Shown: positions 5,181 through 45,134 of the stretch, one piece after another
Numbering within the stretch: position 1 is the stretch's first letter
How the letters are laid out: each line of letters opens with the position of its first letter
Notes under the pieces: model-generated
Told to the model about the DNA's origin: nothing
The model's database searches: none
The model's input: only the letters and a program-made list of their open reading frames with translations
NCBI GenBank assembly: GCA_965116865.1
Contig: OZ220727.1
Span: forward strand, 1,156,798-1,220,797
Reading direction: 5' to 3'
From: Acidimicrobiales bacterium
GTDB lineage: Bacteria; Actinomycetota; Acidimicrobiia; Acidimicrobiales; Aldehydirespiratoraceae
DNA: 64,000 nucleotides
Made by a program: the position numbers and the translations under genes

Positions 5181-6332
5181 TCAGCCGAGAGCGTCGACAA
5201 TGAGGTCGGCGTTGGTACGCACGAAGTCGACGTAGGTCTCGGCGCCGCTGCCGGCGGGACCGAGGCTGCCGGTGTAGAGCGTGACCACGTCGACGTCGCC
5301 GACCCGGTCGGCCAGCGCCTCGACGTCGTCGACGGAGTGCAGGGTCTCGGCGAAGATGGCCTTGATCCCCTCGTGCTCGATGATCTCGGCCAGCTCCTCG
5401 AGCCCGGCGGGGCTGGCCTGCGCCATGCTCGCCGGCGTCGGGATGACCGTGCCGATGAGCTCGAACCCGTAGCGGTCGGCGAAGTACCCGAGCGCCTCGT
5501 GGTTGGTGACCAGCTTGCGGCTCTCGGCGGGGAGTCGCTCGACCTTGGCGGCGACCTCGGCGTCCACCGCCTCCAGCTCGGCCAGGTAGCTGTCCAGGCA
5601 GGCTTCGATCGCGGCGGAGTCGAGACCGACCTCGCTCGTCAGCACCCGGGCGAGGCTCGACAGCGCACCCGACACCCGCTGAGGATCGAACCACACGTGG
5701 GGATCGCCTCCGCTGCCGTGGCCCTCTTCCTCGTGGCCCTCTTCTTCTTCCTCGTGGCCCTCTTCTTCCTCGTGGCCCTCTTCTTCCTCGTGGCCCTCTT
5801 CTTCCTCGTGACCCTCTTCTTCCTCGTGACCCTCTTCTTCCTCGTGTCCTTCGTCTTCTCCACCCTCGCCGTGGTGGTGAGCGCCCTCGAACGAGAACGG
5901 GATGGTCTCCATCCCGTCTGCGAACTCGAACACCGGCGTGCCCGACTCTGCGACTGCTTCGAGCGTGTCTTCGAGGGCCTCCTCCAGCTCCAGGCCGTTG
6001 GCCACCACCAGCGCGGCGTTCTCCATGAGGGCCCGGTCCTGAAGGGAGGGCTCGTAGCTGTGGGGATCGCCGCCGACTGGGATGATCGTCTCGATGTCGG
6101 CCAGCCCGCCGCAGGCCACGTTCGAGACGATGTCGGCCCAGATGCCCGTGGTTACCAGGATTGCCGGAGTCTCAGCGGCAGCCTCGGGCTCGGCCTCTGA
6201 GTCAGTGCCGTCCCCGCTGCACGCTGCGGCTGTCAGGGCCATGACGGCAACAGCCGCGGACATGGCCGTCAGTATCGATGGTCGGGCGCGGGCGGCTGCA
6301 ATGGCGGTGCCGGGGCTTGCTGAACGGATCAC
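5181..6332 (-). CDS. znuA: metal ABC transporter substrate-binding lipoprotein (ZnuA/TroA family) with His/Glu-rich loop
   Basis: Cluster-9 binding-protein-like sequence with lipobox LTAAAC. Loop HHHGEGGEDEGHEEEEGHEEEEGH... The preferred start is GTG 6332, with AAGGAG (6340-6345) 7 nt upstream. The track ORF extends to TTG 6368. Confidence 0.8.
   Translation of the reverse strand: MIRSASPGTAIAAARARPSILTAMSAAVAVMALTAAACSGDGTDSEAEPEAAAETPAILVTTGIWADIVSNVACGGLADIETIIPVGGDPHSYEPSLQDRALMENAALVVANGLELEEALEDTLEAVAESGTPVFEFADGMETIPFSFEGAHHHGEGGEDEGHEEEEGHEEEEGHEEEEGHEEEEGHEEEEGHEEEEEGHEEEGHGSGGDPHVWFDPQRVSGALSSLARVLTSEVGLDSAAIEACLDSYLAELEAVDAEVAAKVERLPAESRKLVTNHEALGYFADRYGFELIGTVIPTPASMAQASPAGLEELAEIIEHEGIKAIFAETLHSVDDVEALADRVGDVDVVTLYTGSLGPAGSGAETYVDFVRTNADLIVDALG
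5717..5852. repeat. coding 18-bp repeat encoding (GHEEEE)n
   Basis: About 7-8 tandem copies of ctcttcttcctcgtggcc-like units on the plus strand. Confidence 0.85.
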
Positions 6333-29560: not shown

Positions 29561-31800
29561 GCATCGGCGCCTCCCCGGTCCGCATCGATGCGTCGGCCAA
29601 GCTGACCGGCGCGGCCGAGTACCCGAGCGACAGGATCCCGCCCGACGCGCTGTGGGCCATGGCGGTGTTCACCGACCAGCCCCACGCCCGCCTGACCGGA
29701 CTCGACTTCTCCGCCGCGGAGGCCGTCGACGGAGTGGTGGCGGTGTTCGGCTCGGTCAACGTGCCCGTGAACGAGTTCGGTCTCACGATGGCAGACCATC
29801 CCGTGTTCGTCGGCCTGGAGCACACCGGCCGCAGTCCGCTGCCCTGCGACGTGTCCCGCTGGGAGGCGGACCGTCTGGCGCTGGTGGTGGCCGAGACCCC
29901 CGAGGCGGCCCGGGCGGGGGCAGCCGCCATCGAGGCTCGGTGGGCGCCGCTGCCGGTGCTGGCCGACATCGACCAGGCGCTGGCCTCCGAGACGCTGGTC
30001 CATCCCGAGAACGGCGAGCCCTCCAACGCCTACTACTCGCTGCGCATCCGCAAGGGGAACATGGATCAGGGCTGGGCCGACGCCGACGTGGTGGTCGAGT
30101 CGACCTACGAGTTCCCCTACCAGGAGCACGCCTACCTGCAGCCCGAGGCGGGCATGGCCTACTTCGACCGAGAGGGCCGGGTGACGGTGAAGGTGGCGGG
30201 CCAGTGGACCCACGAGGACCGGGAGCAGATCGCCCATGCCCTCGACCTTCCCGTCGAGCGGGTGCGGGTGGTCTATCCGGCCATAGGCGGCGCGTTCGGC
30301 GGCCGTGAGGACATATCGGTCCAGATCGTGCTGGCCCTGGCCGCGATGAGGCTCCGCGAGCGGGGCATCGACCGTCCAGTGGCCACCGTGTGGTCGCGCG
30401 AGGAGTCGATCGTCGGGCACGGCAAGCGGCACCGGGGCCGGATCACCGCCCGCTGGGGCGCCCGCCGCGACGGCCGCATCACTGCGGTGAGCAGCACGGC
30501 CTGGCTCGATGCGGGGGCCTACAACTTCACCTCCAACAAGGTGCTGGGCAACTGCCACCTGCACCAGGCCGGCCCCTACGAGGTTCCCAACGCCGAGATC
30601 GACAGCTTCGCGGTGTACACCAACGCCACTCCGGCGGGAGCGTTCCGGGGCTTCGGCGCCCCTCAGGCTGCCTTCGCGGCCGAGAGCCAGATCAACAAGC
30701 TGGCCGCCGCGCTGGGCATGGACCCGGTGGAGATCCGCCGCATCAACGCGCTGCGCGAGGGCAGCATCGGCGTCACCCAGACAGCCATGCCCGAAGGCGT
30801 GACGATGGGTGAGGTGATCGACCGCTGCGCCGAGGCCGCGGCGGAGCCCGCCTCCAACGGCGACGGCGCGGCCTTCAGCCCGTTCCTGTCGCTGCCGCCG
30901 GAGCCGTCGGCGCTGCGCCGGGGCCGGGGTTTCGCCTGCTCATTCAAGAACGTCGGGTTCTCCTTCGGCTTCCCGGAGCGCTGCGAGGCCGAGATAGTGC
31001 TCCACGGAGGCCAGGACTCCGACGTGCCCGAGCGGGCCGAGCTGTACCACGCCGGCGCCGAGGTGGGCCAGGGCGCCCACACCGCGCTGGTGCAGATGGC
31101 CGCCGAAGCCACCGGGCTGCCCGCGGACCGCATCGAGCACCGCTTCTCCGACACGGCCACCTCAGGCGACGCGGGCTCGGCGTCGGCGTCGAGGCTCACA
31201 TGGATGTCGGGCAACGCCATCCTGGGCGCTGCCGAGGAGGCCGAGAAGGCCTGGCGCGACGGCCGGCGCCCGGCCGCGGGCCGTTTCCGCTTCGTGCCTC
31301 CGCCCACCGAGACGCTCGACCCCGTCGACGGACGCGGTATGCCCAACTTCAGCTACGGCTACGTGGCCCAGTACGTCGAGCTCACGGTGGACACCGGCAC
31401 CGGCCACATACGTGTCGACCGGGTAGTCAGCGCCCACGACGTGGGGCGGGCCATCAACCCGGACCTGGTGGTGGGCCAGATCGAGGGCGCGGTCGTCCAG
31501 GCCCACGGCTACGCGCTGAGCGAGAACCTCCGATCGGACGGCGGCCGCCTGCAGAACATGCGGCTCAGCACCTACCTGATGCCCGGCGTCGGCGACATAC
31601 CCACCACCGTCGACAGCGTGGTGCTGGAGCTGGCCGACCCGCTCGGCCCGTGGGGCGCCCGCGGCATGGCCGAGATGGGCATGATCCCCTACGCCCCCGC
31701 GGTGACAGCCGCCCTCCACGACGCCACCGGCGTCTGGTTCGACAGCTTCCCCCTCACCCCCGACCGGGTCCTGACCGACCTCCGGCGGGCGCTCGGCTAG
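29557..31800 (+). CDS. molybdopterin-binding large subunit of the xanthine dehydrogenase/CO dehydrogenase family
   Basis: GTG 29557 overlaps the upstream TGA (GTGA). Family-typical segments include AIGGAFGGRE and GFGAPQ. About 747 aa. Confidence 0.85.
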   Translation: MSIGASPVRIDASAKLTGAAEYPSDRIPPDALWAMAVFTDQPHARLTGLDFSAAEAVDGVVAVFGSVNVPVNEFGLTMADHPVFVGLEHTGRSPLPCDVSRWEADRLALVVAETPEAARAGAAAIEARWAPLPVLADIDQALASETLVHPENGEPSNAYYSLRIRKGNMDQGWADADVVVESTYEFPYQEHAYLQPEAGMAYFDREGRVTVKVAGQWTHEDREQIAHALDLPVERVRVVYPAIGGAFGGREDISVQIVLALAAMRLRERGIDRPVATVWSREESIVGHGKRHRGRITARWGARRDGRITAVSSTAWLDAGAYNFTSNKVLGNCHLHQAGPYEVPNAEIDSFAVYTNATPAGAFRGFGAPQAAFAAESQINKLAAALGMDPVEIRRINALREGSIGVTQTAMPEGVTMGEVIDRCAEAAAEPASNGDGAAFSPFLSLPPEPSALRRGRGFACSFKNVGFSFGFPERCEAEIVLHGGQDSDVPERAELYHAGAEVGQGAHTALVQMAAEATGLPADRIEHRFSDTATSGDAGSASASRLTWMSGNAILGAAEEAEKAWRDGRRPAAGRFRFVPPPTETLDPVDGRGMPNFSYGYVAQYVELTVDTGTGHIRVDRVVSAHDVGRAINPDLVVGQIEGAVVQAHGYALSENLRSDGGRLQNMRLSTYLMPGVGDIPTTVDSVVLELADPLGPWGARGMAEMGMIPYAPAVTAALHDATGVWFDSFPLTPDRVLTDLRRALG

Positions 31801-32136
31801 TGTCCCGAGTGGCTAGTTCCTCGCGGTTGTGTCTTTGCGGTGGTCGGCGTTTCTGGCGGCACGCCGGTCGGTGAACAGCGGCCGACTGGCGAGCACTCTC
31901 ATGTCACCGTCTCGCGCCCCCTGACCGTTCTTGATGCAGTTGACCGTCCATGAGACGCACAACTGCATCAAGAACGGCCGGGCACCCCACAGGCGCCGCA
32001 GACCCCGCGGCTGGACCGACAATTGGATCGACAACCGCAACGAGCATCCGCACCCCTCCGTGTGGCGCATGACCGCCGACGAGAACCCGAGACCATCGCA
32101 GCATATCTGCAACGCATTCCCCACTCGGGACACTAG
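31797..32136. mobile_element. 340-bp element bounded by perfect 16-bp inverted repeats (MITE-like)
   Basis: CTAGTGTCCCGAGTGG at 31797-31812 and CCACTCGGGACACTAG at 32121-32136. An internal perfect 18-bp-stem hairpin lies at 31925-31977. There is no convincing ORF. The left repeat contains the coxL stop TAG. Confidence 0.6.
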
Positions 32137-32154
32137 CGCGCTGTTGGCTGAGGT

Positions 32155-34188
32155 TCAGGCGACTGCGAAGAGCCGGTTCCCGGCGGCGGGTCGGTGGTGT
32201 CCGCTTGTCGGCGGCGGCGCCGGCGGCGGGTCGGGTGCGTGTGCTGGTCCGTGGCGGGTCTGTTCGGGTGGGTGCAGGGTGTGGTTGCCGTCGGGGTTTT
32301 TGCGGATGCGCCAGTTGTGGTGGTGGATCTTCTGGTGGCAGTCCCAGCAGACGGGGGTCATGTTGTCGAGTTTGGTGGATCCGCCCTGAGCGACGGGTTT
32401 GATGTGGTGGATCTGGCACAGCGCGGGGTGCGCCGCGCAGTGGAAGCATCCGCCGTGGCGGGCCAGCAAGATCTGGCGCTGGGACTCGGTGGCGGTGCGG
32501 ACCGAGTGCGTCCGCCAGATCGGCTTGCCGTCGCGGTCGTACACCAGGCCGGTCAGTCTGGCGTTGCACGAGAGCTCCTCCAGCACAGCCCGCGGCAGCC
32601 GGGTGCCGTCGGGCAACTCCGCGACGAGCCTGCCAGTGGCACCGTCGACATGGGCGACCACACAGATGTCCGCTATCGGCCGGCCACCACCCCCGACACT
32701 GCGGCCGGAGCCGTCTGCTCGGCTGTTGCCGGGACCGTCTGCTCGGCCGCTGGTGTCGTTGTTGCGGGAGCCGCCTGCTCGGCCGCTGTCGTTGTTGCGG
32801 GAGCCGCTGTCGTTGTTGCGGGAGCCGCCTGCTCGGCCGCTGTCGTTGTTGCGGGAGCCGCTGTCGTTGTTGCGGGAGCCGCCTGCTCGGCCGCTGGTGT
32901 CGTTGTTGCGGGAGCCGCCTGCTCGGCCGCTGTCGTTGTTGCGGGAGCCGCTGTCGTTGTTGCGGGAGCCGCCTGCTCGGCCGCTGGTGTCGTTGTTGCG
33001 GGAGCCGCTGTCGTTGTTGCGGGAGCCGCCTGCTCGGCCGCTGTCGTTGTTGCGGGAGCCGCTGTCGTTGTTGCGGGAGCCGCCTGCTCGGCCGCTGGTG
33101 TCGTTGTTGCGGGAGCCGCCTGCTCGGCCGCTGTCGTTGTTGCGGGAGCCGCTGTCGTTGTTGCGGGAGCCGCCTGCTCGGCCGCTGGTGTCGTTGTTGC
33201 GGGAGCCGCCTGCTCGGCCGCTGTCGTTGTTGCGGGAGCCGCTGTCGTTGTTGCGGGAGCCGCCTGCTCGGCCGCTGGTGTCGTTGTTGCGGGAGCCGCT
33301 GTCGTTGTTGCGGGAGCCGCCTGCTCGGCCGCTGGTGTCGTTGTTGCGGGAGCCGCCTGCTCGGCCGCTGGTGTCGTTGTTGCGGGAGCCGCTGTCGTTG
33401 TTGCGGGAGCCGTTGTTGTGGGGTTTGTCTGTTGGGGTGTTGGTGGTGGTGAGGGCGTCGAGGGCGTCGGCCATGCATTGACCGAAATTGCGGCGGCCGG
33501 TTCCGTCGGCGGGGGCTTTCTTGTCGGCGCTGTGCATGCGAGCGGCTTGCGAGCGCAGCCGGTTGGCGACGCGTCTGCCGGTCACCGGGTCGAGCTCGCC
33601 GCGGAGATGGACCATCCCGTCGTCGCCGTCCCAGACACGAACACAGCGCCGCGCCCGCGAACGGCGATGCTGGGACTCCCCGTCGTCGCCGTCGCGGTCG
33701 ACCACCCACCGGCGAGCCTCTCGGGCGAACTGCTCGGGACGCATCGACACAGCCTTCGCCAACAGCTCCCCGTCGCCGTCGACAGCGCTGGCGCCGGCCG
33801 TCTCGGAAGCTTCGGCCAGCCGCCGCGCGTTCGCCGCGGACACCCGCCCCGACTCGACCGCATCACGCGCCGCGGGCGCCTCCCGCAACGCCTCGGCCGT
33901 CTTTAGGTGGCTGCGGGCCTCGCGCCGCGACAACCCGGCCGAACCCGCCAGCACCTCAGCGCCGCCGTCGCCGTGACGCTCACGGCCCGCCACCGCCGCC
34001 GCAGCCGACACCTGCGCAGCCGACAGCGCCGCCATCGCCGACCTCGACACCGCCAGCATCTCACGCAACTCCGAACACGACGCCGCGCCCGCGCCCACCA
34101 GCTCCAGCATCTCGGAGGCAGCGGCCTCGGCCCGACGAGCAGCTTCGATCAACATGCACACAGCATCCCACAGGGCTATGACATCCAC
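32155..34188 (-). CDS. DUF222/HNH endonuclease (REP13E12-type) with about 230-aa internal tandem-repeat expansion
   Basis: The N-terminal region resembles the mycobacterial 13E12 repeat family. The C-terminal HNH segment is CFHCAAHPALCQIHHIKPVAQGGSTKLDNMTPVCWDCHQKIHH. The middle is (GSRNNDSGSRNNDTSGRAGG)n. Confidence 0.8.
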   Translation of the reverse strand: MDVIALWDAVCMLIEAARRAEAAASEMLELVGAGAASCSELREMLAVSRSAMAALSAAQVSAAAAVAGRERHGDGGAEVLAGSAGLSRREARSHLKTAEALREAPAARDAVESGRVSAANARRLAEASETAGASAVDGDGELLAKAVSMRPEQFAREARRWVVDRDGDDGESQHRRSRARRCVRVWDGDDGMVHLRGELDPVTGRRVANRLRSQAARMHSADKKAPADGTGRRNFGQCMADALDALTTTNTPTDKPHNNGSRNNDSGSRNNDTSGRAGGSRNNDTSGRAGGSRNNDSGSRNNDTSGRAGGSRNNDSGSRNNDSGRAGGSRNNDTSGRAGGSRNNDSGSRNNDSGRAGGSRNNDTSGRAGGSRNNDSGSRNNDSGRAGGSRNNDSGSRNNDTSGRAGGSRNNDSGSRNNDSGRAGGSRNNDTSGRAGGSRNNDSGSRNNDSGRAGGSRNNDSGSRNNDSGRAGGSRNNDTSGRADGPGNSRADGSGRSVGGGGRPIADICVVAHVDGATGRLVAELPDGTRLPRAVLEELSCNARLTGLVYDRDGKPIWRTHSVRTATESQRQILLARHGGCFHCAAHPALCQIHHIKPVAQGGSTKLDNMTPVCWDCHQKIHHHNWRIRKNPDGNHTLHPPEQTRHGPAHAPDPPPAPPPTSGHHRPAAGNRLFAVA
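32710..33412. repeat. coding compound tandem repeat (21- and 39-bp sub-units)
   Basis: Alternating gccgctgtcgttgttgcgggagcc and gcctgctcggccgctggtgtcgttgttgcgggagcc blocks span about 700 bp. Confidence 0.9.
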
Positions 34189-34595
34189 CCCCCACAGCCC
34201 CCATCCTCACGCATTTCTCGATACTCCTCCACGCGAAAACTCCCACCAACCACACGATCCCGCGGATCCAGCGCCGCCGTCGCCGTGACGCTCACGGCCC
34301 GCCACCGCCGCCGCAGCCGACACCTGCGCAGCCGACAGCGCCGCCATCGCCGACCTCGACACCACCAACATCTCACGCAACTCCGAACACGACGCCGCGC
34401 CCGCGCCCACCAGCTCCAGCATCTCGGAGGCAGCGGCCTCGGCCCGACGAGCGGCTTCGATCAACATGCACACAGCATCCCACAGGGGTATGACATCCAC
34501 CCCCCACAGCCCCCATCCTCACGCATTTCTCGATACTCCTCCACGCGGAACTCCCACCAACCACGCGATCCCGCGGATCTAGCGCCGCCGTCGGT
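33957..34595. repeat. 311/312-bp tandem duplication covering the 5' end and upstream region of the HNH gene
   Basis: The segment cagcgccgccgtcgccgtgacgctcacgg starts at 33957 and 34269, with a third partial start at 34580. By eye the copies are about 97% identical. Confidence 0.9.
34207..34500 (-). pseudogene. duplicated N-terminal fragment of the DUF222/HNH gene
   Basis: MDVIPLWDAVCMLIEAARRAEAAASEMLELVGAGAASCSELREMLVVSRSAMAALSAAQVSAAAAVAGRERHGDGG is nearly identical to residues 1-76 of the 32155..34188 product. It then diverges and stops. Confidence 0.8.
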
Positions 34596-35121: not shown

Positions 35122-35742
35122 TGTTGGTGGTGTCTTCGATGGGTGCGGGTCTGACTCGGTGCTTCGCTGGCTTCGTGTCTTGCAAACGATCTGTCGGCTG
35201 GTGCCCGTCGGGGACGCGCGCCAGCCGGTCGGAGGGAATGTGACCTGATAGGAGCCTCGGTTCGAGCGCCTTGAGTGTATTGTCGGTTGTTCCGGCCGGT
35301 GGTGCCCAGCCAGCTGGAAGTGGTCCAAAGGAAGGGCAGACCGATTGTGCCAGATGTACAACGAATCGTCATGGGTGGGGTGGACACCCACCGTGACGAG
35401 CGCACGGTAGGTGTCCATCGATTTGGCGGGGCGGCTGCTGGGCACGGCCTCGTTCGCGGTGACACGGGAAGGCTATGGGCAGCTACTGGGGTGGTTGCGC
35501 AGTCTCGGCGGGGTGGAGTGTGTCGGAGCAGAGGGCACCAGCAGCTACGGCGCGGGCCTGGCGCGTCGTCTCGCAGCGGAGGGCGTGAGCGTGGTCGAGG
35601 TGCTGCGCCCCAAGCGCGGGGCGCGCCGCGGGGACAAGTCGGATCCCGCGGATACCGAGGCGGCCGCGCGGGCTGTGCTGTCAGGAGAGGCCACAGCCCG
35701 CCCGAAGTCCGCTGACGGCCCGGTGGAGGCGATCCGGGTGCT

Positions 35743-35850
35743 GCGCGCCGCGCGGCGCTCCGCGGTCAAGGCCCGCACCCGAATCGCTGCTGCCTGCCTC
35801 GCTCACGGCTCACGCGCGCCGCGCGGCGCTCCGCGGTCAAGGCCCGCACC
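35743..35850. repeat. X-Y-X repeat, period 71 bp, disrupting the IS110 transposase frame
   Basis: The segment gcgcgccgcgcggcgctccgcggtcaaggcccgcacc occurs at 35743-35779 and 35814-35850. Confidence 0.9.
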
Positions 35851-36218
35851 GCCGCCGTCAACCAGATCAAAGCGCTGTTGGTGACCGCCCCCGAGCAGAT
35901 CGCCGCCCCGCTGCGGGGCCTTCGCACCGCCGCTTTGGTCGGTGCCTGTGCTCGACTGCGGCCCGATACCGCCGGCGGCGAGGCTGCCGGCGCGGCGAAG
36001 AGGACCATGCGCGGCCTGGCGCGACGGCACCGGGCGCTCAGCGGCGAGATAGACGAGCTCGACGCTGAGATCGCCCGCCTGTGCATGCAGGCGAATCCCG
36101 CTTTGATGGCCGCGCCCGGCGTCGGCGCGCAGACTGCCGCCGCGCTGCTCGTCGCCGCTGGCGACAACCCGCGGCGCCTGCACAGCGAGGCGTCCCTCGC
36201 GGCGCTCTGCGGAGCCGG

Positions 36219-36306
36219 CCCCATCGAGGCGTCCTCGGGGCGCACAATGGCTGTCCTCGTGGGCCGCGACAGCCAGTCGCCCCATCGAGGCGTCCTCGGG
36301 GCGCAC
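36219..36306. repeat. X-Y-X repeat, period 61 bp, disrupting the IS110 transposase frame
   Basis: The segment ccccatcgaggcgtcctcggggcgcac occurs at 36219-36245 and 36280-36306. Confidence 0.9.
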
Positions 36307-36454
36307 CGTGCGCCACCGCCTCAACCGCGGCGGCGACCGAGCAGCCAAACTCAGGACATTAGAGACCGAGCGCTTTGCGCAGTACCTCGTCGATGGCGCG
36401 GCGGCGTCGCAGCCGCCGGACCTGGCCCCTGATCCGCACCGATAGACCGTCTCG

Positions 36455-36765: not shown

Positions 36766-37026
36766 TACCGGCCGAGGCTAGTCAGGGGACCTCCGTCGAC
36801 AGCGTCGTGGTGTTCCCATACGGTGCCGAGTTCGAGGCACCGGCCGAAGCTGGTCAGAGGACCTCCGTCGACAGCGTCGTGGTGTTCCCATACGGTGCCG
36901 AGTTCGAGGCACCGGCCGAAGCTGGTCAGAGGACCTCCGTCGACAGCGTCGTGGTGTTCCCATACGGTGCCGAGTTCGAGGCACCGGCCGAAGCTGGTCA
37001 GGGGACCTCCGTCGACAGCGTCGTGC
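36766..37026. repeat. 72-bp tandem array (3.6 copies)
   Basis: The segment gacctccgtcgacagcgtcgtg starts at 36788, 36860, 36932 and 37004. Confidence 0.95.
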
Positions 37027-38392
37027 TGGAGCTGGCCGACCCGCTCGGCCCGTGGGGCACCCGCCGGGCGGTCAATTGGCGGGCGGCACCCGGCTGGTAG
37101 CGTTCGCTGCGGGGACGGGCGTTGTAGTTCTCCATCCATTCCTGCACGTCGGCGTCGTTGTCGAAGTCGACGCCGTCGGCGATCATGTCGGTGACGATGT
37201 TGGTGGTGGCCGACCTCTTGGCCGGGTCCGCCGCGTTGGCCCTCATATCGCCGAACGCCCCTCGGGCCGCCTCGAGGTTCTCCTGCAACCGGTCCTGCGC
37301 GAGGCCCCGTTGCTGCGCCGCGAAGCGCAGCCATTGCGGGAACACCGACTCGACGACGTCGTGCCACCCCTCGTCGCACACCGACTTGGCCGGTATCCAC
37401 ACACTCACGAACTCCACAACCCTTCGCGGGCTCCAGCACAGCACATCACCGTCCCACCATGCTTCAGAGAACCGGCAGGCCGCCGCGAGCACCGTGTCGG
37501 CGTCGGAGGCGTCCCGCTCGTCGACCACGGCGCGGAACTCCCCGCGGAGGTCGTCGATCTCCTCGTCGGTCAGCCATCGGGGCCCGTGCTCCTCACCACA
37601 TGCCGGCAGCAGCCCGATCCGATGCTCCAACAGCGCCCTCAGCTTCTCGTCCATCATTTCGTCGTCACCGCCGTTGTCGCCGCCGTTGTCGCCGCCATGG
37701 CGGAGCGCCGCTGCGACGTCCTGCACCTCCAGAGCGGCCTCGACGATCACCCGAGCGTCACCCAGGCTGATCTCCTCCACTACCGCGTCGGGCCACTGCT
37801 TGAATTCTGCGGCCACCGTCTCAACCGCCGGGCCGTAGGCGAGACTGCTCGCGCCCTTGCCTGCCGTCGCGTGGACTGCGACGCCCATCCCCCGCACCGC
37901 GCCGTCGGGGCGCTGGAAGTCGATCCACACCGCTCGCTCGTCTCCCCATGGGTCGGTGAGCAGCACCGAGCGGCGCGGCACGACATCGCCGAGCGCCGCA
38001 GCCCAGCCAGGCGGCGGCTCACCGTCACCGGCCAACTGCTCCAACAGGTCATGCGCCTGGGCCCGGCATCCGGGCGGCCCGTACACCCCCATCGCCGCGG
38101 CCACCGCCCCGGCCGCGGCACGGTCGTCGCAGACCTCCGCCGCGGCCAGCACCCTCGGCGCAGCCATCGCGGGATCGCACGCGTAGACGAAGGGACGGAA
38201 CAGCGCCTGTATCGACGACGCCCAATACTCCGCCACGTCGAGGTCGGTGAGGACTGCGGCGTCGGCGGCGTCCGTCAACAGCACCTGTTCCAGCTGCGGT
38301 TCCGGGCCCGCAGCCGCCCTGAGGCGATCGCCGGGCCTGGTCCCTTTCGGCGTGACGCGACCGCCCCCGCAGCGGCGCTTCGGTCGTGGCAT
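36998..38392 (-). CDS. hypothetical protein (Arg/Lys-rich N-terminus MPRPKRRCGGGRVTPKGTRPG)
   Basis: Long ORF with coding-like composition. The preferred start is ATG 38392. The last roughly 20 codons are antisense read-through of the coxL-like fragment and repeat. Confidence 0.6.
   Translation of the reverse strand: MPRPKRRCGGGRVTPKGTRPGDRLRAAAGPEPQLEQVLLTDAADAAVLTDLDVAEYWASSIQALFRPFVYACDPAMAAPRVLAAAEVCDDRAAAGAVAAAMGVYGPPGCRAQAHDLLEQLAGDGEPPPGWAAALGDVVPRRSVLLTDPWGDERAVWIDFQRPDGAVRGMGVAVHATAGKGASSLAYGPAVETVAAEFKQWPDAVVEEISLGDARVIVEAALEVQDVAAALRHGGDNGGDNGGDDEMMDEKLRALLEHRIGLLPACGEEHGPRWLTDEEIDDLRGEFRAVVDERDASDADTVLAAACRFSEAWWDGDVLCWSPRRVVEFVSVWIPAKSVCDEGWHDVVESVFPQWLRFAAQQRGLAQDRLQENLEAARGAFGDMRANAADPAKRSATTNIVTDMIADGVDFDNDADVQEWMENYNARPRSERYQPGAARQLTARRVPHGPSGSASSSTTLSTEVP
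37007..37068 (+). other. 62-bp ectopic copy of an internal coxL segment
   Basis: This segment matches coxL 31604-31665 at about 58 of 62 positions in the same orientation. The matching peptide is TVDSVVLELADPLGPWGARG. Confidence 0.85.
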
Positions 38393-38467
38393 GTGCGGCC
38401 CCCTTGTTCTCTCCGGCACGGAACCGATCTGGGCATCGTCGCGCACCGACCGGATCCGTCTCTTCTA

Positions 38468-38819
38468 GCCGCGGCCGACGCACAACTGGGCGATCCCCCG
38501 CCGACCCAGCGTCGAGGCACCGACCACCCTCGGAATCCTCCTCAAGCCGCGGCCGACACACAACTGGGCGATCCCCCGCCGACCCAGCGTCGAGGCACCG
38601 ACCACCCTCGGAATCCTCCTCAAGCCGCGGCCGACACACAACTGGGCGATCCCCCGCCGACCCAGCGTCGAGGCACCGACCACCCTCGGAATCCTCCTCA
38701 AGCCGCGGCCGACACACAACTGGGCGATCCCCCGCCGACCCAGCGTCGAGGCACCGACCACCCTCGGAATCCTCCTCAAGCCGCGGCCGACACACAACTG
38801 GGCGATCCCCCGCCGACCC
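38468..38819. repeat. 78-bp tandem array (4.5 copies) in a divergent intergenic region
   Basis: The segment gccgcggccgac starts at 38468, 38546, 38624, 38702 and 38780. Confidence 0.95.
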
Positions 38820-38981
38820 GGCAGTCAGCCGAGGTTCTGACCGTCGATGAGAACTGTCGGGCGTCGAGGGTGCAGTGATCATTCCCGCTCACCCCCGACC
38901 AGGCCATGGCCGGTTCCAGGGCCGTCTACCGGCGGCACGGCGCCTGAGAATTCGAGCCGTGAAGTAGATTCGAGACGGCAA

Positions 38982-39404
38982 GTGAGACTCAACACCGATT
39001 TCTTGAACCGCTGCGTGCGGACGCTGGCCGCGGCTCTCGACCGCCTCGATGACGTCGAGACCGGCGACGACGACTACGACATCTTCAGGGCGGCCTGCGT
39101 CAAGGAGTTCGAGATCATCCTGGAACAGTGCGGCAGCCTTCTCAGGAAACGCCTCCGGCCCTACTTCTCATCGAACCGCGAGGCCGACTCGCTCGCCTTC
39201 AAGGCCACGTTCCGCGAGGCCGCCCGGCACGGCCTGATCGCAGTGGAGGCGTGCGAGCGGTGGCTGGAGTACCGCGACTGCCGCAACGACACGTCCCACA
39301 AGCACGGCGAGGCGTTCGCGGAGGCCACGCTGGCGGTGCTTCCGGCGTTCGTGGCCGACGCCCGCCGGATCGCCGCCGTCGTCGGGGAACCCTTCGATGA
39401 CTGA
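38982..39404 (+). CDS. HEPN-type nucleotidyltransferase substrate-binding protein (HI0074 family; HepT-like toxin)
   Basis: FRAACVKEFEIILEQCGSLLRK ... WLEYRDCRNDTSHKHGE carries the R-x4-H HEPN motif. The GTG 38982 start is in frame. Confidence 0.75.
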   Translation: MRLNTDFLNRCVRTLAAALDRLDDVETGDDDYDIFRAACVKEFEIILEQCGSLLRKRLRPYFSSNREADSLAFKATFREAARHGLIAVEACERWLEYRDCRNDTSHKHGEAFAEATLAVLPAFVADARRIAAVVGEPFDD

Positions 39405-39741
39405 CCGGCTGGATCTTCGCTGCCGCCACCGCCGACGGGTCGAGGCGCTGCTCGCGGCCCATGTGCCCGACACCGAAGTGTGGGCCTACGGCAGCCGTGT
39501 CAACGGCGGAGGCCACGAGGCAAGCGACTTGGACCTCGTGCTGCGCGGCCCTAACCTCGGCCCGATCCCCCGCGGGCGCATGGCCCGGCTCGATACCGCT
39601 CTCGAACAGTCCAACATTCCCATCGTGGTGCAGACCCTCGACTGGGCAAGGCTGCCGCAGAGCTTCCGCGACGAGATCGAGAAGCAGTACGTGGTCCTAC
39701 GCGCGGCGCCTCAGCCCAGCCCCGACCGACAGGCAGAATGA
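39397..39741 (+). CDS. minimal nucleotidyltransferase (MNT/HI0073-like antitoxin)
   Basis: AYGSRVNGGGHEASDLDLVL matches the GS..G..DxD motif. Its ATG overlaps the upstream stop. Confidence 0.8.
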   Translation: MTDRLDLRCRHRRRVEALLAAHVPDTEVWAYGSRVNGGGHEASDLDLVLRGPNLGPIPRGRMARLDTALEQSNIPIVVQTLDWARLPQSFRDEIEKQYVVLRAAPQPSPDRQAE

Positions 39742-41707: not shown

Positions 41708-43000
41708 TCAGGGTGCCAGGGCGGTGATGGGGGCCACTGCCACGCCGTCGGGGCGCTCGTAGGCGTATCCGCCGGCGGTGACGACGAGCAGTTTGGCCGG
41801 CTCGCCCGCCTTGTCGAGGTTCACCTTGTTGCGCAGCCGCAGAAGCGCGGCCGCGGCGTCATCGGGGCCGCGGCCGCCGCCGAGCTTGATCTCCGCGGCG
41901 ATCCACCGCCCGTCGGAGCGTTCGAGGACGGCGTCCACCTCCAGTCCGGTGTTGTCGCGGTAGTAGTGGATGCTCGCGTCGTTGGCCTCGGCGTACACCC
42001 GCAGGTCGCGCACCGCCAAGGCTTCGAACAGTGCGCCGAACCCCCTCGGGTCGGCCATGAGCCGGGCCCGGTTGGACCGCAGGGCCGCCACCGCCAGCGA
42101 CGGGTCCACCAGGTAGCGCTTCGGTGTGGCCGCGATGTGAGCCCGGGACCGCAGATCGGCGGGCCACGGGGTGAGATGCTCCAGGACGAACAGCTGCTCC
42201 AGGGCCGACAGGTAGGCGGCCACCGTCCTCGGGTCCGCGGGGCGGACCGTGTCCATGTCGGCCGCGAGGACCCTTCGTGAGGCGCTGGTGGCGATGTTGC
42301 GGGCCAGCGACTCCAGCAGCCGAGCCACGCCCGCAGGGTCGCGGCGGGCCCGGTCGACGTACTCGATGTCGGCCTTGCACAGGTCGGCCAGATAGTCGCG
42401 CAGCACCTGCTGGGCCCCGGCGCCGTCGGCAGTCACCAGCGCGGGCCAGCCGCCCCGGCACACCAGCTCGTAGACGTCGGGCTCGTCGCCGATCGCGGGC
42501 GCCGACACCTCCCCGGAGCCGAACAGGGCGCCCAGCGACACGGCCCCGGACGACTCGCCGGACTCGAACAGCGTCATGGGCCGCATCCGCACCCTGCGCA
42601 CCCGCCCCGCCCCGGTGTGGCGGGTGTGGCTGTCGGGCGGCACCGCCGAGCCGGTGAGGATGAACTGCCCCGGCCGTCCGATCTCGTCGCAGGCCCGCCG
42701 CATCGGGTTCCAGATGCCCGGCGACAGGTGGTACTCGTCGATGAGCCGGGGCCGCTCGCCCTCTAGCAGCAGCCTCCTGGCCATTGCCGAGGTGAGAGCT
42801 GCCGACTCCTCGGCGTCGATCAGCACGGCGCTGCGGGCCGCGTTGCCTCCCGTCCAGGTCTTGCCGCAGGCCCGCGGGCCCTCGACGAGCACCGCCGGGG
42901 CAGCCCCGAGGGCCTGAGCGAGAAGTGCGTCCGCGATCCGGGGCCGGTACCGCCCGCGGATCGTCATCAAGAGAGGATGCTCGCCCATCGCGCTGTCCAC
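41708..43000 (-). CDS. AAA ATPase with DUF4143-type C-terminal domain
   Basis: Walker A-like GPRACGKT and Walker B-like LIDEYH. The C-terminal restriction-endonuclease-like part contains YYRDNTGLEVDAVLE. 430 aa. The start could be GTG 43000 or ATG 42988. Confidence 0.75.
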   Translation of the reverse strand: MDSAMGEHPLLMTIRGRYRPRIADALLAQALGAAPAVLVEGPRACGKTWTGGNAARSAVLIDAEESAALTSAMARRLLLEGERPRLIDEYHLSPGIWNPMRRACDEIGRPGQFILTGSAVPPDSHTRHTGAGRVRRVRMRPMTLFESGESSGAVSLGALFGSGEVSAPAIGDEPDVYELVCRGGWPALVTADGAGAQQVLRDYLADLCKADIEYVDRARRDPAGVARLLESLARNIATSASRRVLAADMDTVRPADPRTVAAYLSALEQLFVLEHLTPWPADLRSRAHIAATPKRYLVDPSLAVAALRSNRARLMADPRGFGALFEALAVRDLRVYAEANDASIHYYRDNTGLEVDAVLERSDGRWIAAEIKLGGGRGPDDAAAALLRLRNKVNLDKAGEPAKLLVVTAGGYAYERPDGVAVAPITALAP

Positions 43001-44004: not shown

Positions 44005-44550
44005 GGAAGACCCCCGCGTGGGCGGCGCCTCAGACGGTCCACCTCCTCGCAGACCCGGCGCTTGGGGAAGACCCCCGCGTGGGCGGCGCCTCACCCCCGG
44101 ATCCGTCGCAGCGCCTCTGTCGCGTTCATCGGCAAAGCGGTCCGCACCCGCGTGGGCGGCCCTTCACCCCCGGATCCGTCGCAGCGCCTCTGTCGCGTTC
44201 ATCGGCAAAGCGGTCCGCACCCGCGTGGGCGGCCCTTCACCCCCGGATCCGTCGCAGCGCCTCTGTCGCGTTCATCGGCAAAGCGGTCCGCACCCGCGTG
44301 GGCGGCCCTTCACCCCCGGATCCGTCGCAGCGCCTCTGTCGCGTTCATCGGCAAAGCGGTCCGCACCCGCGTGGGCGGCCCTTCACCCCCGGATCCGTCG
44401 CAGCGCCTCTGTCGCGTTCATCGGCAAAGCGGTCCGCACCCGCGTGGGCGGCGCCTCACTCCCGGATCCGTCGCAGCGCCTCTGTCGCGTTCATCGGCAA
44501 AGCGGTCCGTACCCGCGTGGGCGGCCCTTCACCCCCGGATCCGTCGCAGC
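44005..44550. repeat. tandem array, 8 X copies (first interval 61, then 75, then 72 bp x5), seeded on the HIT gene stop
   Basis: The segment acccccgcgtgggcgg / acccgcgtgggcgg starts at 44010, 44071, 44146, 44218, 44290, 44362, 44434 and 44506. The unit contains ccttcacccccggatccgtcgcagc, which is the last 6 codons plus the TGA of the HIT gene. Confidence 0.95.
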
Positions 44551-45134
44551 TGGCCAGCCGCCGCCTGGCTCGGCCATGCGGCGGTCAGGCGCTCCCAGCA
44601 GTCCTGGAGGCTCCGGGGCAGGACCCTCACGTCGGCGATGGCGGTCATGAAGTTGGTGTCGGAACGCCAACGGGGCAGCACGTGAATATGGACATGGTCG
44701 AAGACGCTGGGGCCGGCGCCCTCTCCGAGATTGGCGCCGATGTTCACCCCGTCGGGCGAGAACGCGGCCTTCACCGCGGCCACAGCGTCGTGGACGGTGT
44801 CCCAGAGCTCGCGGCGCTCGCCGGAGTCCAGGCCCTCCAGGTCTCCAACAGCCCGATAGGGCAGGATCAGCAGGTGGCCCGTGGAGTACGGGTAGCGGTT
44901 CAGGATGGCGAAGACCAGTTCGCCCCGATGCACGATGTGGGTCTTGTCGTCGGGCAGGCCCGAGCTGAGGATGGCCTCGAACAGGCTCTTGCCCTCCCCG
45001 ACGCCCGGGCCGGTCCCGGCGCCGGGGACCGTGCCCGGGATGGTGCCGGAAGAGTTCACGATCCCGGCGGCGGCCGCCTCCCGGCCCTCCATCATGGCAG
45101 GGATCCGCCACCCGGCCCAGAGGCGCTCCACCAT
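44529..45134 (-). CDS. HIT-family nucleotide hydrolase/transferase (Ap4A phosphorylase-like)
   Basis: Histidine triad HVHIHVLPR, plus NRYPYSTGHLLILPYR. Confidence 0.8.
   Translation of the reverse strand: MVERLWAGWRIPAMMEGREAAAAGIVNSSGTIPGTVPGAGTGPGVGEGKSLFEAILSSGLPDDKTHIVHRGELVFAILNRYPYSTGHLLILPYRAVGDLEGLDSGERRELWDTVHDAVAAVKAAFSPDGVNIGANLGEGAGPSVFDHVHIHVLPRWRSDTNFMTAIADVRVLPRSLQDCWERLTAAWPSQAAAGQLRRIRG

What the first reader, a model, noticed from the sequence alone, without database searches (positions are those of the whole stretch)
31797..32136. A 340-bp element has perfect 16-bp terminal inverted repeats and an internal 18-bp-stem hairpin
CTAGTGTCCCGAGTGG (31797-31812) and its exact reverse complement (32121-32136) bracket a segment with no convincing ORF. 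A perfect hairpin, ccgttcttgatgcagttg / caactgcatcaagaacgg, with a 17-nt loop lies at 31925-31977. The element sits between the convergent coxL and HNH genes and marks the left edge of the 31.8-44 kb accessory island. The coxL stop TAG lies inside the left repeat. It could be a non-autonomous transposon, a recombination site or a structured RNA locus.
Basis: seen in the sequence. Interest (0 to 1): 0.6.

Follow-up and report, generated by a model that had tools for sequence, protein, structure and literature searches.

The report
IS630-type MITE with captured host hairpin
The 340-bp segment is one of about 23 copies of a small non-coding jumping-DNA element (a MITE) derived from an IS630-family insertion sequence; it is an ordinary kind of element, except that its middle, hairpin included, can be traced to a piece of host DNA it picked up.

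Summary
The ends are perfect inverted repeats, 16 bp as reported and 17 bp in full, and there is a perfect 18-bp-stem hairpin.

The segment is a non-autonomous IS630/Tc1-mariner-type element (a MITE).
- **Copy number:** this 3.3-Mb genome has 23 near-full copies (83–98% alike) plus about 20 fragments.
- **Target:** nearly all copies are bounded by CTAG. Three have paralogous empty sites that show TA duplication inside CTAG.
- **Transposase link:** the 3' third is a decayed transposase C-terminus that runs through the right repeat.
- **Autonomous relatives:** 14 intact copies of an 1167-bp IS630-family IS lie in the same genome. An 1178-bp IS in a sister species is a closer match.
- **Core:** the hairpin and its surroundings are homologous to a single-copy host locus in five sister species, namely the intergenic hairpin and the first ~13 codons of a molybdopterin dehydrogenase gene downstream of cysS. 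The core is therefore captured host DNA.
- **Hairpin:** it belongs to a small genus-specific host hairpin family. Many copies of the element have damaged or lost it, so the element does not depend on it.

The ~12.8-kb island is real relative to about 15 sister species, but the site is a genus-wide insertion hotspot.

The complete element was found only in this genome.

Verdict: a new member of a known kind, of modest interest.

The parts
31797..31800 (+). Left CTAG. TA at 31798-31799 is one copy of the duplicated target dinucleotide. TAG at 31798-31800 is the coxL stop codon, rebuilt from the target TA plus the element's first base G.
   Evidence: Paralogous empty sites show C-TA-G becoming C-TA-[element]-TA-G.
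31800..31812 (+). Left terminal inverted repeat core, GTGTCCCGAGTGG.
   Evidence: Conserved at the ends of nearly all copies. Related to the IRL of the 1167-bp IS (GTGTCCTGAGTCT) and of the G041 IS (GTGTGCTGAGTGA).
31813..31865 (+). IS-derived left subterminal region (…TAGTTCCTCGCGGTTGTGT…TTGCGG…).
   Evidence: Shared with the left end of the intact IS630-type IS in sister species G041 (L038 370-…), with the deletion derivatives at G000 3169962 and 2173912, and with the solo remnant in L040.
31866..31982 (-). Host-derived core, read antisense. It holds the first ~13 codons (ATG = complement of 31900-31902) and 5' leader of a molybdopterin-dehydrogenase paralogue, plus the intergenic hairpin that follows cysS in sister species.
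   Evidence: 80-89% nucleotide identity over ~115 nt to single-copy loci in G033, G034, G037, G040 and G044. The flanking genes there are cysS and Ald_Xan_dh_C/MoCoBD_1. Boundaries are approximate to within about 6 nt.
31925..31977 (.). Hairpin: 18-bp arms (31925-31942 and 31960-31977) with a 17-nt loop. It is a member of a genus-specific host hairpin family, TTCTTGATGYAGTTG-N17-CAACTRCATCAAGAA.
31978..32008 (+). Junction segment (GGCCGGG..CCCCACAGGCGCCGCAGACCCCGCG) shared with IS630 deletion derivatives. The host fragment joins the IS-derived part at the microhomology CCGGGG(CC).
   Evidence: direct sequence comparison; the join mechanism is inferred.
32009..32136 (+). Remnant of the transposase C-terminus, running through the right repeat. 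The family consensus reads GWTDNWIDNRNEHPHPFVWRMTADEILETIAAYLQRIPHSGH*, with the stop TAG at 32134-32136. This copy carries a 1-nt deletion near 32088 that breaks the frame.
   Evidence: A copy with an intact frame aligns to the last 37 residues of the G041 IS630 transposase at 59% identity, E = 3e-15.
32121..32133 (-). Right terminal inverted repeat core (CCACTCGGGACAC on the + strand).
   Evidence: The last 14 nt including TA-G (ACTCGGGACACTAG) are identical to the IRR of 6 of the 14 resident 1167-bp IS copies.
32133..32136 (+). Right CTAG. TA at 32134-32135 is the second copy of the target dinucleotide.

Best explanation
The segment is a miniature, non-autonomous derivative (MITE) of an IS630/Tc1-mariner-family insertion sequence.

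Shown: it is a dispersed family with terminal inverted repeats. It inserts at the TA of 5'-CTAG-3' and duplicates that TA. Because the element starts with G and ends with C, CTAG is rebuilt at both junctions. An insertion at a C|TAG stop codon, as at coxL here, therefore leaves the stop intact.

Shown: its two ends derive from an IS630-type parent. The left ~65 bp are the IRL and leader. The right ~130 bp are the last ~42 codons of the transposase, which run through the IRR.

Shown: its ~115-bp core is homologous to a single-copy host locus in sister species, made of the cysS-downstream hairpin and the start of a molybdopterin dehydrogenase gene.

Inferred: the core was captured during formation of the deletion derivative, most likely by microhomology-mediated repair or template switching after excision. 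It joins the IS part at CCGGGG(CC).

Inferred: movement is by cut-and-paste, in trans, by an HTH+DDE_3 transposase. The original parent (the type seen intact in sister species G041) survives here only as fragments. The candidate present-day helper is the 1167-bp IS (14 copies, all with open 366-aa frames), whose IRR matches the element's ends over the terminal 14 nt.

Shown: the hairpin is a passenger and is not needed for propagation.

Inferred: part of the copy number comes from co-duplication with the DUF222-HNH repeats next to which the element often sits. The window copy itself probably arrived, or was homogenised, together with its HNH neighbour.
For: - Multi-copy family: 23 near-full copies plus about 20 fragments. 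Pairwise identity is 83-98.5%, median 91%.
- CTAG at both ends of most copies.
- Clean paralogous empty sites with TA duplication for the copies at G000 1850639 (10 empty paralogues, 96-97% across the junction), 2046670 (empty at 3118627-3118737) and 1025997 (empty at 1038059-1038201).
- Head-to-tail pairs sharing one CTAG (1303398/1303704 and 2091993/2092331).
- The consensus 3' part reads as an IS630 transposase C-terminus ending in the terminal TAG. Alignment to the G041 transposase gives E = 3e-15.
- The resident 1167-bp IS has ends CTAGTGTCCTGAGTC…GACTC(A/G)GGACACTAG and a transposase with HTH_32/HTH_29 + DDE_3 and NCBIfam NF033545 (IS630 family) at 235 bits against a cut-off of 100. The G041 IS scores 283 bits.
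- Intermediate deletion derivatives share the element's internal junction.
- The core matches single-copy cysS/dehydrogenase loci in five sister species that lack the element. G000 keeps cysS but has lost that neighbour.
- Hairpin decay across copies: 6 perfect, 7 with one mismatch, 1 with three, 5 lacking the left arm, 4 lacking both arms.
- IS630 family biology (TA duplication, cut-and-paste, preference for TA within CTAG): PMC2170065, and Tenzen & Ohtsubo 1991 as cited there.
Against: - No two copies are identical. The closest pair is 98.5% alike, and the window copy's nearest relative is 97.1%. There is therefore no sign of very recent movement, whereas the 1167-bp IS copies are 98-99% alike.
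- Several copies have CTGG instead of CTAG at one end.
- The sequence subfamilies track the neighbouring HNH-A or HNH-B repeat. Many 'copies' may therefore be segmental co-duplications rather than transpositions.
- The window copy has no empty-site comparator. Relatives lack the entire 12.8-kb island, not just the element.
- The left repeat of the resident IS differs from the element's at 3 of 13 positions, so cross-mobilisation is unproven.
- The direction of the host/element homology is inferred from copy number, synteny and protein-motif conservation. No capture event was observed.
Confidence: 0.88

Rival explanations
1. This particular copy did not transpose to the coxL stop by itself. It arrived as the outer end of a larger unit (element + DUF222-HNH repeat + further genes). 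That unit could be a composite IS630-type transposon, using the element's left repeat and a distal IS630 right repeat, or a segmental duplication or gene conversion.
For: - Similarity between the window and other loci runs without a break from the element's left repeat into the HNH repeat: 31797-32222 at 96% to G000 1104965-1104540, and 31797-34593 at 88% to 2180436-2177627.
- All seven copies next to HNH-A fall in one sequence cluster, and the HNH-B neighbours fall in another.
- Two loci, 3164893-3170732 and 2173386-2180436, have the layout [element – HNH-A – … – 5'-truncated IS630 derivative with an intact right repeat]. Their outer ends are CTAG…CTAG and their flanks differ.
- IS630-associated composite transposons are known (Tenzen & Ohtsubo 1991, cited in PMC2170065).
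Against: - The island's right edge in the window has no IS630-type repeat.
- Similarity to the composite loci ends at window 36048, inside an IS110-family transposase gene.
- Both composite loci are embedded in other repeats, so no empty site could be found.
- At least two copies next to HNH-A (2046670 and 1025997) are demonstrably independent insertions into a pre-existing CTAG at the HNH boundary.
Confidence: 0.35
2. The functionally relevant thing is the hairpin. The locus acts as a structured RNA or DNA signal between the convergent coxL and HNH genes, for example a bidirectional U-tract-less terminator, an RNase site or a protein-binding palindrome. The element is merely the vehicle that delivered it.
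For: - The window copy has a perfect 18-bp stem with a strongly negative folding energy on both strands.
- The hairpin belongs to a host family with invariant arms and a fixed 17-nt loop. That family sits right after stop codons or between convergent genes in sister species, which suggests a conserved host function.
- Two element copies, including this one, carry a compensatory C-G in place of the ancestral T-A.
Against: - Only 6 of 23 copies keep a perfect stem and 9 have lost one or both arms.
- No Rfam family matches; the only hits are spurious miRNA matches far below threshold.
- No T-tract terminator is predicted.
- The compensatory change can arise without selection, by template switching within quasi-palindromes (established mechanism, inference here).
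- The orientation of the loop relative to neighbouring genes is inconsistent among host loci.
Confidence: 0.1
3. The inverted repeats are a site-specific recombination (att-like) boundary of the 31.8-44.6 kb island.
For: The element is exactly at the island's left edge relative to about 15 sister species. Displaced coxL 3' fragments inside the island (window 37005-37063) and in relatives suggest that some site-specific integration has occurred at this gene's end.
Against: The same element occurs at more than 20 loci that have no islands. No copy of the repeat lies at the right edge. No recombinase is adjacent. The paralogous empty sites show simple TA duplication.
Confidence: 0.03

Closest known systems
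IS630 (Shigella sonnei) and ISY100 (Synechocystis): the IS630/Tc1-mariner family
   Same: Short terminal inverted repeats. Insertion at TA with TA duplication, and, as for IS630 itself, a preference for TA within 5'-CTAG-3'. The related autonomous elements encode one HTH + DDE transposase (Pfam DDE_3, NCBIfam NF033545). The transposase ORF ends in or at the right repeat.
   Different: This element is 340 bp and encodes no transposase. It keeps only the last ~42 codons, now decayed, and carries about 115 bp of host DNA. Its exact parent is no longer intact in this genome.
Stowaway-like MITEs derived from Tc1/mariner elements by microhomology-mediated miniaturisation (e.g. Aedes aegypti, PMC3814204)
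   Same: A non-autonomous TA-duplicating derivative that retains both ends of a Tc1/mariner/IS630-type parent. Internal junctions lie at short microhomologies. Intermediate deletion derivatives coexist with it in the genome.
   Different: This element is prokaryotic, with tens rather than thousands of copies. It has a strict CTAG context. Its core is foreign (host) DNA, not just a deletion.
Bacterial MITEs with cores unrelated to the parent IS, and mobile insertion cassettes (e.g. MITEAba12, PMC6382973; P. syringae MITEs, PMC3189936)
   Same: A small IS-derived element presumably mobilised in trans. It is intergenic and can lie at gene ends.
   Different: Here the origin of the core can be traced to a specific single-copy host locus in sister species. 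I found no bacterial example of this in the papers retrieved, though that search was not exhaustive.
Transduplicating plant elements (Pack-MULEs) and filler-DNA capture during gap repair
   Same: A gene fragment (5' leader plus first codons) from the host lies between transposon ends and is multiplied with the element.
   Different: A different superfamily and kingdom. The captured piece is tiny (~115 bp), antisense to the transposase remnant, and shows no sign of expression or function.
REP (repetitive extragenic palindromic) elements
   Same: The captured hairpin's host relatives are short palindromes with conserved arms and variable loops, placed after stop codons or between convergent genes.
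   Different: There are only 1-6 host copies per genome. The arms are AT-rich in a 68.5% G+C genome and the loop length is fixed. No RAYT association was tested.

Membership tests
MITE derived from the IS630 family | Small size (<~600 bp) and no functional transposase gene | tested here: met
   Copies are 275-343 bp. Only a decayed 42-codon C-terminal remnant is present. Copies differ by frame-breaking indels.
MITE derived from the IS630 family | Terminal inverted repeats | tested here: met
   The window copy has a perfect inverted repeat of 13 bp, or 17 bp counting the CTAG and one further flanking base. It is conserved across copies.
MITE derived from the IS630 family | TA target-site duplication (for IS630 proper, TA within CTAG) | tested here: met
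   Three filled/empty paralogue pairs show C-TA-G becoming C-TA-[element]-TA-G. Most copies have CTAG at both ends. Not shown for the window copy itself.
MITE derived from the IS630 family | Multiple dispersed copies in one genome | tested here: met
   23 near-full copies plus about 20 fragments across a 3.32-Mb chromosome. Caveat: some copies are co-duplicated with neighbouring HNH repeats.
MITE derived from the IS630 family | Ends homologous to an autonomous IS that encodes an IS630-family (HTH + DDE) transposase | tested here: met
   - Resident 1167-bp IS and G041 1178-bp IS: similar repeats and subterminal sequence.
- The C-terminal remnant aligns to the G041 transposase (E = 3e-15).
- Transposases match Pfam DDE_3 + HTH_32/29 and NCBIfam NF033545 at 235 and 283 bits against a cut-off of 100.
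- Read directly from the sequence, the second catalytic D and the E are separated by 35 residues (DNSSTHK…NLVERWF). The spacing was not compared with family references.
MITE derived from the IS630 family | Mobilisation in trans by the cognate transposase | not testable with these tools
   Needs a mobilisation or binding assay.
Known structured RNA family (Rfam) | Covariance-model match at or above the gathering score | tested here: not met
   Only two miRNA models matched, at 20-23 bits against gathering scores of 57-98.
Intrinsic (T-tract) terminator | G+C-rich stem followed by a T run | tested here: not met
   No terminator-like site in 31500-32400. The stem is AT-rich and no T run follows it.
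REP/RAYT system (for the hairpin's host family) | High-copy palindromes associated with a Y1 (RAYT) transposase | not tested
   There are only 1-6 host loci per genome, which is atypical for REP elements. RAYT genes were not searched.

The most novel reading that the evidence does not exclude
By capturing one member of a genus-specific, sequence-constrained host hairpin family and multiplying it from about 3 native loci to about 22 in this genome, the element may have spread a functional host signal to new gene ends. That signal could be a protein- or RNase-recognised hairpin or a U-tract-less bidirectional terminator. The new sites would include the gap between coxL and the HNH gene. This would be a bacterial case of a transposon rewiring transcript boundaries with a traceable captured host motif.
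Probability: 0.1. Interest if true: 0.6.

Novelty: new member of a known kind. Interest (0 to 1): 0.3.

Why it matters
As an IS630-derived MITE it is ordinary. It does explain the repeat structure at the edge of a variable region. It also shows how CTAG-targeting elements in a high-G+C genome land on TAG stop codons without destroying them. In about 6 of 21 loci the junction CTAG is the stop of a coding-like ORF.

What is less ordinary is that the whole history is readable. An autonomous relative, intermediate deletion derivatives and the miniature element are all present. The donor of the element's core is a single-copy host locus still present in sister species. Cases where the origin of a bacterial MITE's 'unrelated core' can be pinned to a specific host site appear to be rare.

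The captured hairpin also drew attention to a small, genus-specific family of invariant-arm hairpins of unknown function in Candidatus Aldehydirespirator genomes. That family may merit its own study.

Tried and rejected
- **Exact-pattern scans.** I scanned for the element's left end in 185,579 species genomes and for a conserved internal 33-mer in the metagenome contig collection. Neither gave a hit, so no extra-genomic copies were available.
- **Orthologous empty sites.** I searched joined flanks of the copies at 1049843 and 1655415 in 38 sister species. Only one flank is conserved in each case, because the intergenic DNA is too variable. These copies therefore have no spanning empty site. 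The searches do show that the conserved gene next to 1655415 ends exactly at the junction CTAG.
- **Empty sites for the two composite-looking units.** Their flanks are other repeats, so the test was inconclusive.
- **A closer intact parent in this genome.** Only fragments and deletion derivatives exist. The locus at 2087708 is the element's left 129 bp fused to a degenerate, different transposase.
- **Origin of the left hairpin arm.** I first thought it was a 20-nt insertion creating the hairpin. I rejected this once the host locus showed both arms. The ~320-bp subfamily has instead lost the arm by a deletion between TGACCGT direct repeats.
- **Rfam and terminator scans.** Both were negative.
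- **IS630-type repeat at the island's right edge.** None is present. The CTGG at 44565, where relatives have CTAG, is only a weak hint.
Full report
**1. Observation**

CTAGTGTCCCGAGTGG (31797-31812) is the exact reverse complement of 32121-32136, and the match extends one base further on each side to 17 bp. The hairpin has arms at 31925-31942 and 31960-31977, with an 18-bp perfect stem and a 17-nt loop. Its predicted folding energy is strongly negative on both strands.

Upstream lies a molybdopterin-dehydrogenase large-subunit gene (MoCoBD_1, MoCoBD_2, Ald_Xan_dh_C). Its TAG stop sits in the left CTAG. Downstream, convergent, lies a DUF222 + HNH gene. The 13-nt repeat core occurs in the window only at the two ends.

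**2. It is a repeat family**

Searching the window's own genome gave many hits. The genome is G000, one 3.32-Mb contig of 68.5% G+C, and the window is 1156798-1220797. The search found 23 near-full copies and about 20 fragments.
- 20 copies are 320-349 bp long.
- 3 copies are ~275 bp long and lack the hairpin region.

Pairwise identity is 83-98.5%, with a median of 91%. The window copy's nearest relative is 97.1% identical. Almost all copies begin with CTAG and end with CTAG, and some have CTGG at one end.

**3. Target site and proof of insertion**

I joined the flanks of each copy and searched the genome for matching uninterrupted sites. Three copies have clean paralogous empty sites.

| Filled copy (G000) | Empty paralogue(s) |
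|---|---|
| 1850639-1850981 | 10 empty paralogues, 96-97% across the junction |
| 2046670-2047009 | 3118627-3118737: …AACTTTCCTAGCGCATTG… against …AACTTTC-CTAG[element]CTAG-CGCATTG… |
| 1025997-1026272 | 1038059-1038201 |

All three fit duplication of the TA inside CTAG. Two head-to-tail pairs share a single CTAG. This is the signature of IS630: TA duplication, cut-and-paste movement and a preference for TA in 5'-CTAG-3' (PMC2170065, and Tenzen & Ohtsubo 1991 cited there).

Because the element begins with G and ends with C, CTAG is regenerated on both sides. A consequence is that an insertion at a C|TAG stop leaves the stop intact. In about 6 of 21 loci the junction CTAG terminates a long ORF with coding-like GC3, and coxL here is one of them. 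CTAG is four-fold under-represented in this genome, at 2415 observed against about 9674 expected.

**4. Transposase-bearing relatives**

About 18 hits at ~73% identity covered only the element's last 113 nt. They led to an 1167-bp IS with these features:
- 14 copies, 98-99% alike, every one with an open 366-aa frame.
- Ends CTAGTGTCCTGAGTC…GACTC(A/G)GGACACTAG.
- A transposase with HTH_32/HTH_29 + DDE_3, matching NCBIfam NF033545 (IS630 family) at 235 bits against a cut-off of 100.

In six of these copies the right end is identical to the element's ends over the last 14 nt.

The alignment of the element's copies shows that the consensus 3' part is in frame as GWTDNWIDNRNEHPHPFVWRMTADEILETIAAYLQRIPHSGH*, with the stop formed by the terminal TAG. 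The window copy has a 1-nt deletion that breaks this frame.

A closer autonomous relative is an intact 1178-bp IS in sister species G041 (L038 370-1547). Its left end is CTAGTGTGCTGAGTGATTAGTTCCTCGCG…, and its 375-aa transposase scores 283 bits on NF033545. Its last 37 residues align to a frame-intact element copy at 59% identity, E = 3e-15.

G000 holds only fragments of that type (80-90% amino-acid identity). It also holds two deletion derivatives, at 3169962-3170732 and 2173386-2173912. These keep the N-terminal HTH coding part and the C-terminal part, and they share the element's internal junction sequence. The series parent, deletion derivative and miniature element is therefore visible.

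**5. The core is host DNA**

Among 38 other species of the genus, none has the complete element. Five have a single-copy match of 75-84% to the window copy's positions 72-186; other G000 copies match that host locus at 80-89%. These matches lie in one syntenic place: cysS (tRNA-synt_1e, DALR_2, CysS_C), then an ~85-bp spacer with the hairpin, then the start of a molybdopterin dehydrogenase paralogue (Ald_Xan_dh_C, MoCoBD_1) beginning MSVLGNRVLRTEDPRML….

Read antisense, the element carries the hairpin, the leader and M-RVLASRPLFTD. G000 retains cysS at 2363828-2364957 but not the hairpin or the paralogue beside it.

Four things indicate that the host was the donor:
- The sequence is single-copy and syntenic in five species that lack the element.
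- The host version conforms to the family's conserved N-terminal motif.
- The element's version of that motif is decayed.
- The homology ends about 13 codons into the gene.

The 3' junction with the IS-derived part lies at a CCGGGG(CC) microhomology. This fits capture by microhomology-mediated repair, as described for Tc1/mariner-derived MITEs in eukaryotes (PMC3814204). That step is inference.

**6. The hairpin**

In the element family the hairpin is not maintained.

| State of the hairpin | Copies |
|---|---|
| Perfect stem | 6 |
| One mismatch | 7 |
| Three mismatches | 1 |
| Left arm lost (20-nt deletion between TGACCGT direct repeats) | 5 |
| Both arms lost | 4 |

The window copy and one other carry C-G where the ancestral state is T-A. 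Single-step intermediates are common among the other copies. No Rfam family matches and no T-tract terminator is predicted.

Unexpectedly, the arms define a host motif: TTCTTGATGYAGTTG-N17-CAACTRCATCAAGAA.
- It occurs at 1-6 loci in 11 of 38 sister genomes, with variable 17-nt loops.
- It was not found in 150 genomes from other genera of the order.
- These loci lie in short intergenic gaps, directly after stop codons, between convergent genes, or just before a start codon. Orthologous loci keep the arms while the loops drift.
- G000 has 22 such hairpins, 19 of them inside element copies or fragments.

The function of the host hairpin is unknown. The element has multiplied it roughly seven-fold in this genome.

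**7. Context**

Record titles of the relatives place the genome among MAGs named Candidatus Aldehydirespirator / Acidimicrobiales.

In about 15 species the coxL stop is 20-47 bp from the convergent downstream gene. That gene is orthologous to window ~44565 onward. G000 therefore carries about 12.8 kb extra, and the element is its first component.

The site is nevertheless a genus-wide hotspot:
- Other species carry 0.1-2.3 kb or more at the same place.
- Some carry the island's DUF4143/AAA ATPase gene (window 41708-43000) next to coxL.
- The closest relative (L040) has a solo 53-bp IS630 left-end remnant after coxL. It is joined directly to the homologue of window 37078-39703.
- Displaced coxL 3' fragments occur in the island (37005-37063) and in relatives.

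Only 31.8-35 kb and 44.0-44.5 kb of the island are repeated elsewhere in the genome. The island's right edge has no IS630 repeat.

**8. How this copy got here**

The sequence to the right of the element (32136 to ~34600) is a ~14-copy DUF222-HNH repeat, here called HNH-A. A second family, HNH-B, has about 16 copies. Fifteen element copies abut the 3' boundary of one or the other.

Element subfamilies track the neighbour type. The window's similarity to other loci runs through the element/HNH junction without a break. Much of the copy number, probably including this copy, may therefore reflect co-duplication or composite movement with the HNH repeat.

Two loci look like composite units bounded by the element's left repeat and a distal IS630 right repeat. 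No empty site could be found for them. Against this, two HNH-A-adjacent copies are proven independent insertions into a pre-existing boundary CTAG. Both processes evidently occur.

**9. Verdict**

The att-site reading is rejected. The structured-RNA reading is reduced to a possible side effect of a captured host hairpin. The element is a new member of a known kind, with a well-documented origin that includes host-fragment capture.

Noticed in passing
window 31925-31977; G000 441776-441822 and 3036613-3036659; L120-L132: A genus-specific host hairpin family, TTCTTGATGYAGTTG-N17-CAACTRCATCAAGAA. It has invariant AT-rich 15-nt arms and a fixed 17-nt variable loop. It occurs at 1-6 loci in 11 of 38 sister genomes and in none of 150 other genomes of the order. 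It sits after stop codons, between convergent genes, or just before a start codon. Its function is unknown.
   Followed up: partly
window 32136-~34600 (HNH-A); G000 e.g. 1097216, 2505972, 3118667 (HNH-A) and 1947075-1947570 (HNH-B tail): Two families of DUF222+HNH (REP13E12-like) repeats, of about 14 and about 16 copies. The CTAG at their 3' boundary has been hit repeatedly by the 340-bp element, the 1167-bp IS and a second IS630 type. What moves the HNH repeats themselves is not known.
   Followed up: partly
G000 3164893-3170732 (+) and 2173386-2180436 (-): Composite-looking units [340-bp element – HNH-A – further DNA – 5'-truncated IS630 deletion derivative with an intact right repeat]. They are bounded by CTAG…CTAG and have different flanks. 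They may be IS630-type composite transposons carrying an HNH gene. No empty site was found because the flanks are other repeats.
   Followed up: partly
window 37005-37063; L044 ~5595-5860; L053 ~5750-5870: Displaced copies of the coxL 3' end lie inside the variable region downstream of coxL, in this genome and in two sister species. The coxL 3' intergenic site carries different insertions in many species. This suggests some element integrates site-specifically into the end of coxL.
   Followed up: no
L040 4046-4098 (OZ220743.1): The closest relative has a solo 53-bp IS630 left-end remnant (87% to the element's left end) about 75 bp after its coxL. It is directly followed by the homologue of window 37078-39703.
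   Followed up: partly
window 44565-44568 and 44529-45134 (-): Where relatives have CTAG (the stop of the convergent downstream gene), this genome has CTGG. As a result, the minus-strand ORF appears to run 12 codons further into the island.
   Followed up: no
window 35411-36432: An IS110-family transposase (DEDD_Tnp_IS110 + Transposase_20) split over two frames. The two composite-like loci carry the same gene truncated by an IS630 derivative.
   Followed up: partly
window ~44380-44545: Tandem ~60-bp repeats (…CCCGGATCCGTCGCAGCGCCTCTGTCGCGTTCATCGGCAAAGCGGTCCG…) at the right edge of the island. About 6 related copies lie elsewhere in the genome.
   Followed up: no
G000 3170330-3170600: The IS630 deletion derivative at this locus has an expanded tandem array of a ~42-nt unit (CCGCGGCCGGGGCCTCCACAGGTGCCGCAGAGCT). 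This is the same sequence that forms the internal junction of the 340-bp element.
   Followed up: no
whole genome G000: CTAG is about four-fold under-represented (2415 observed against about 9674 expected from base composition). Many of the CTAG sites present are IS or MITE junctions.
   Followed up: no
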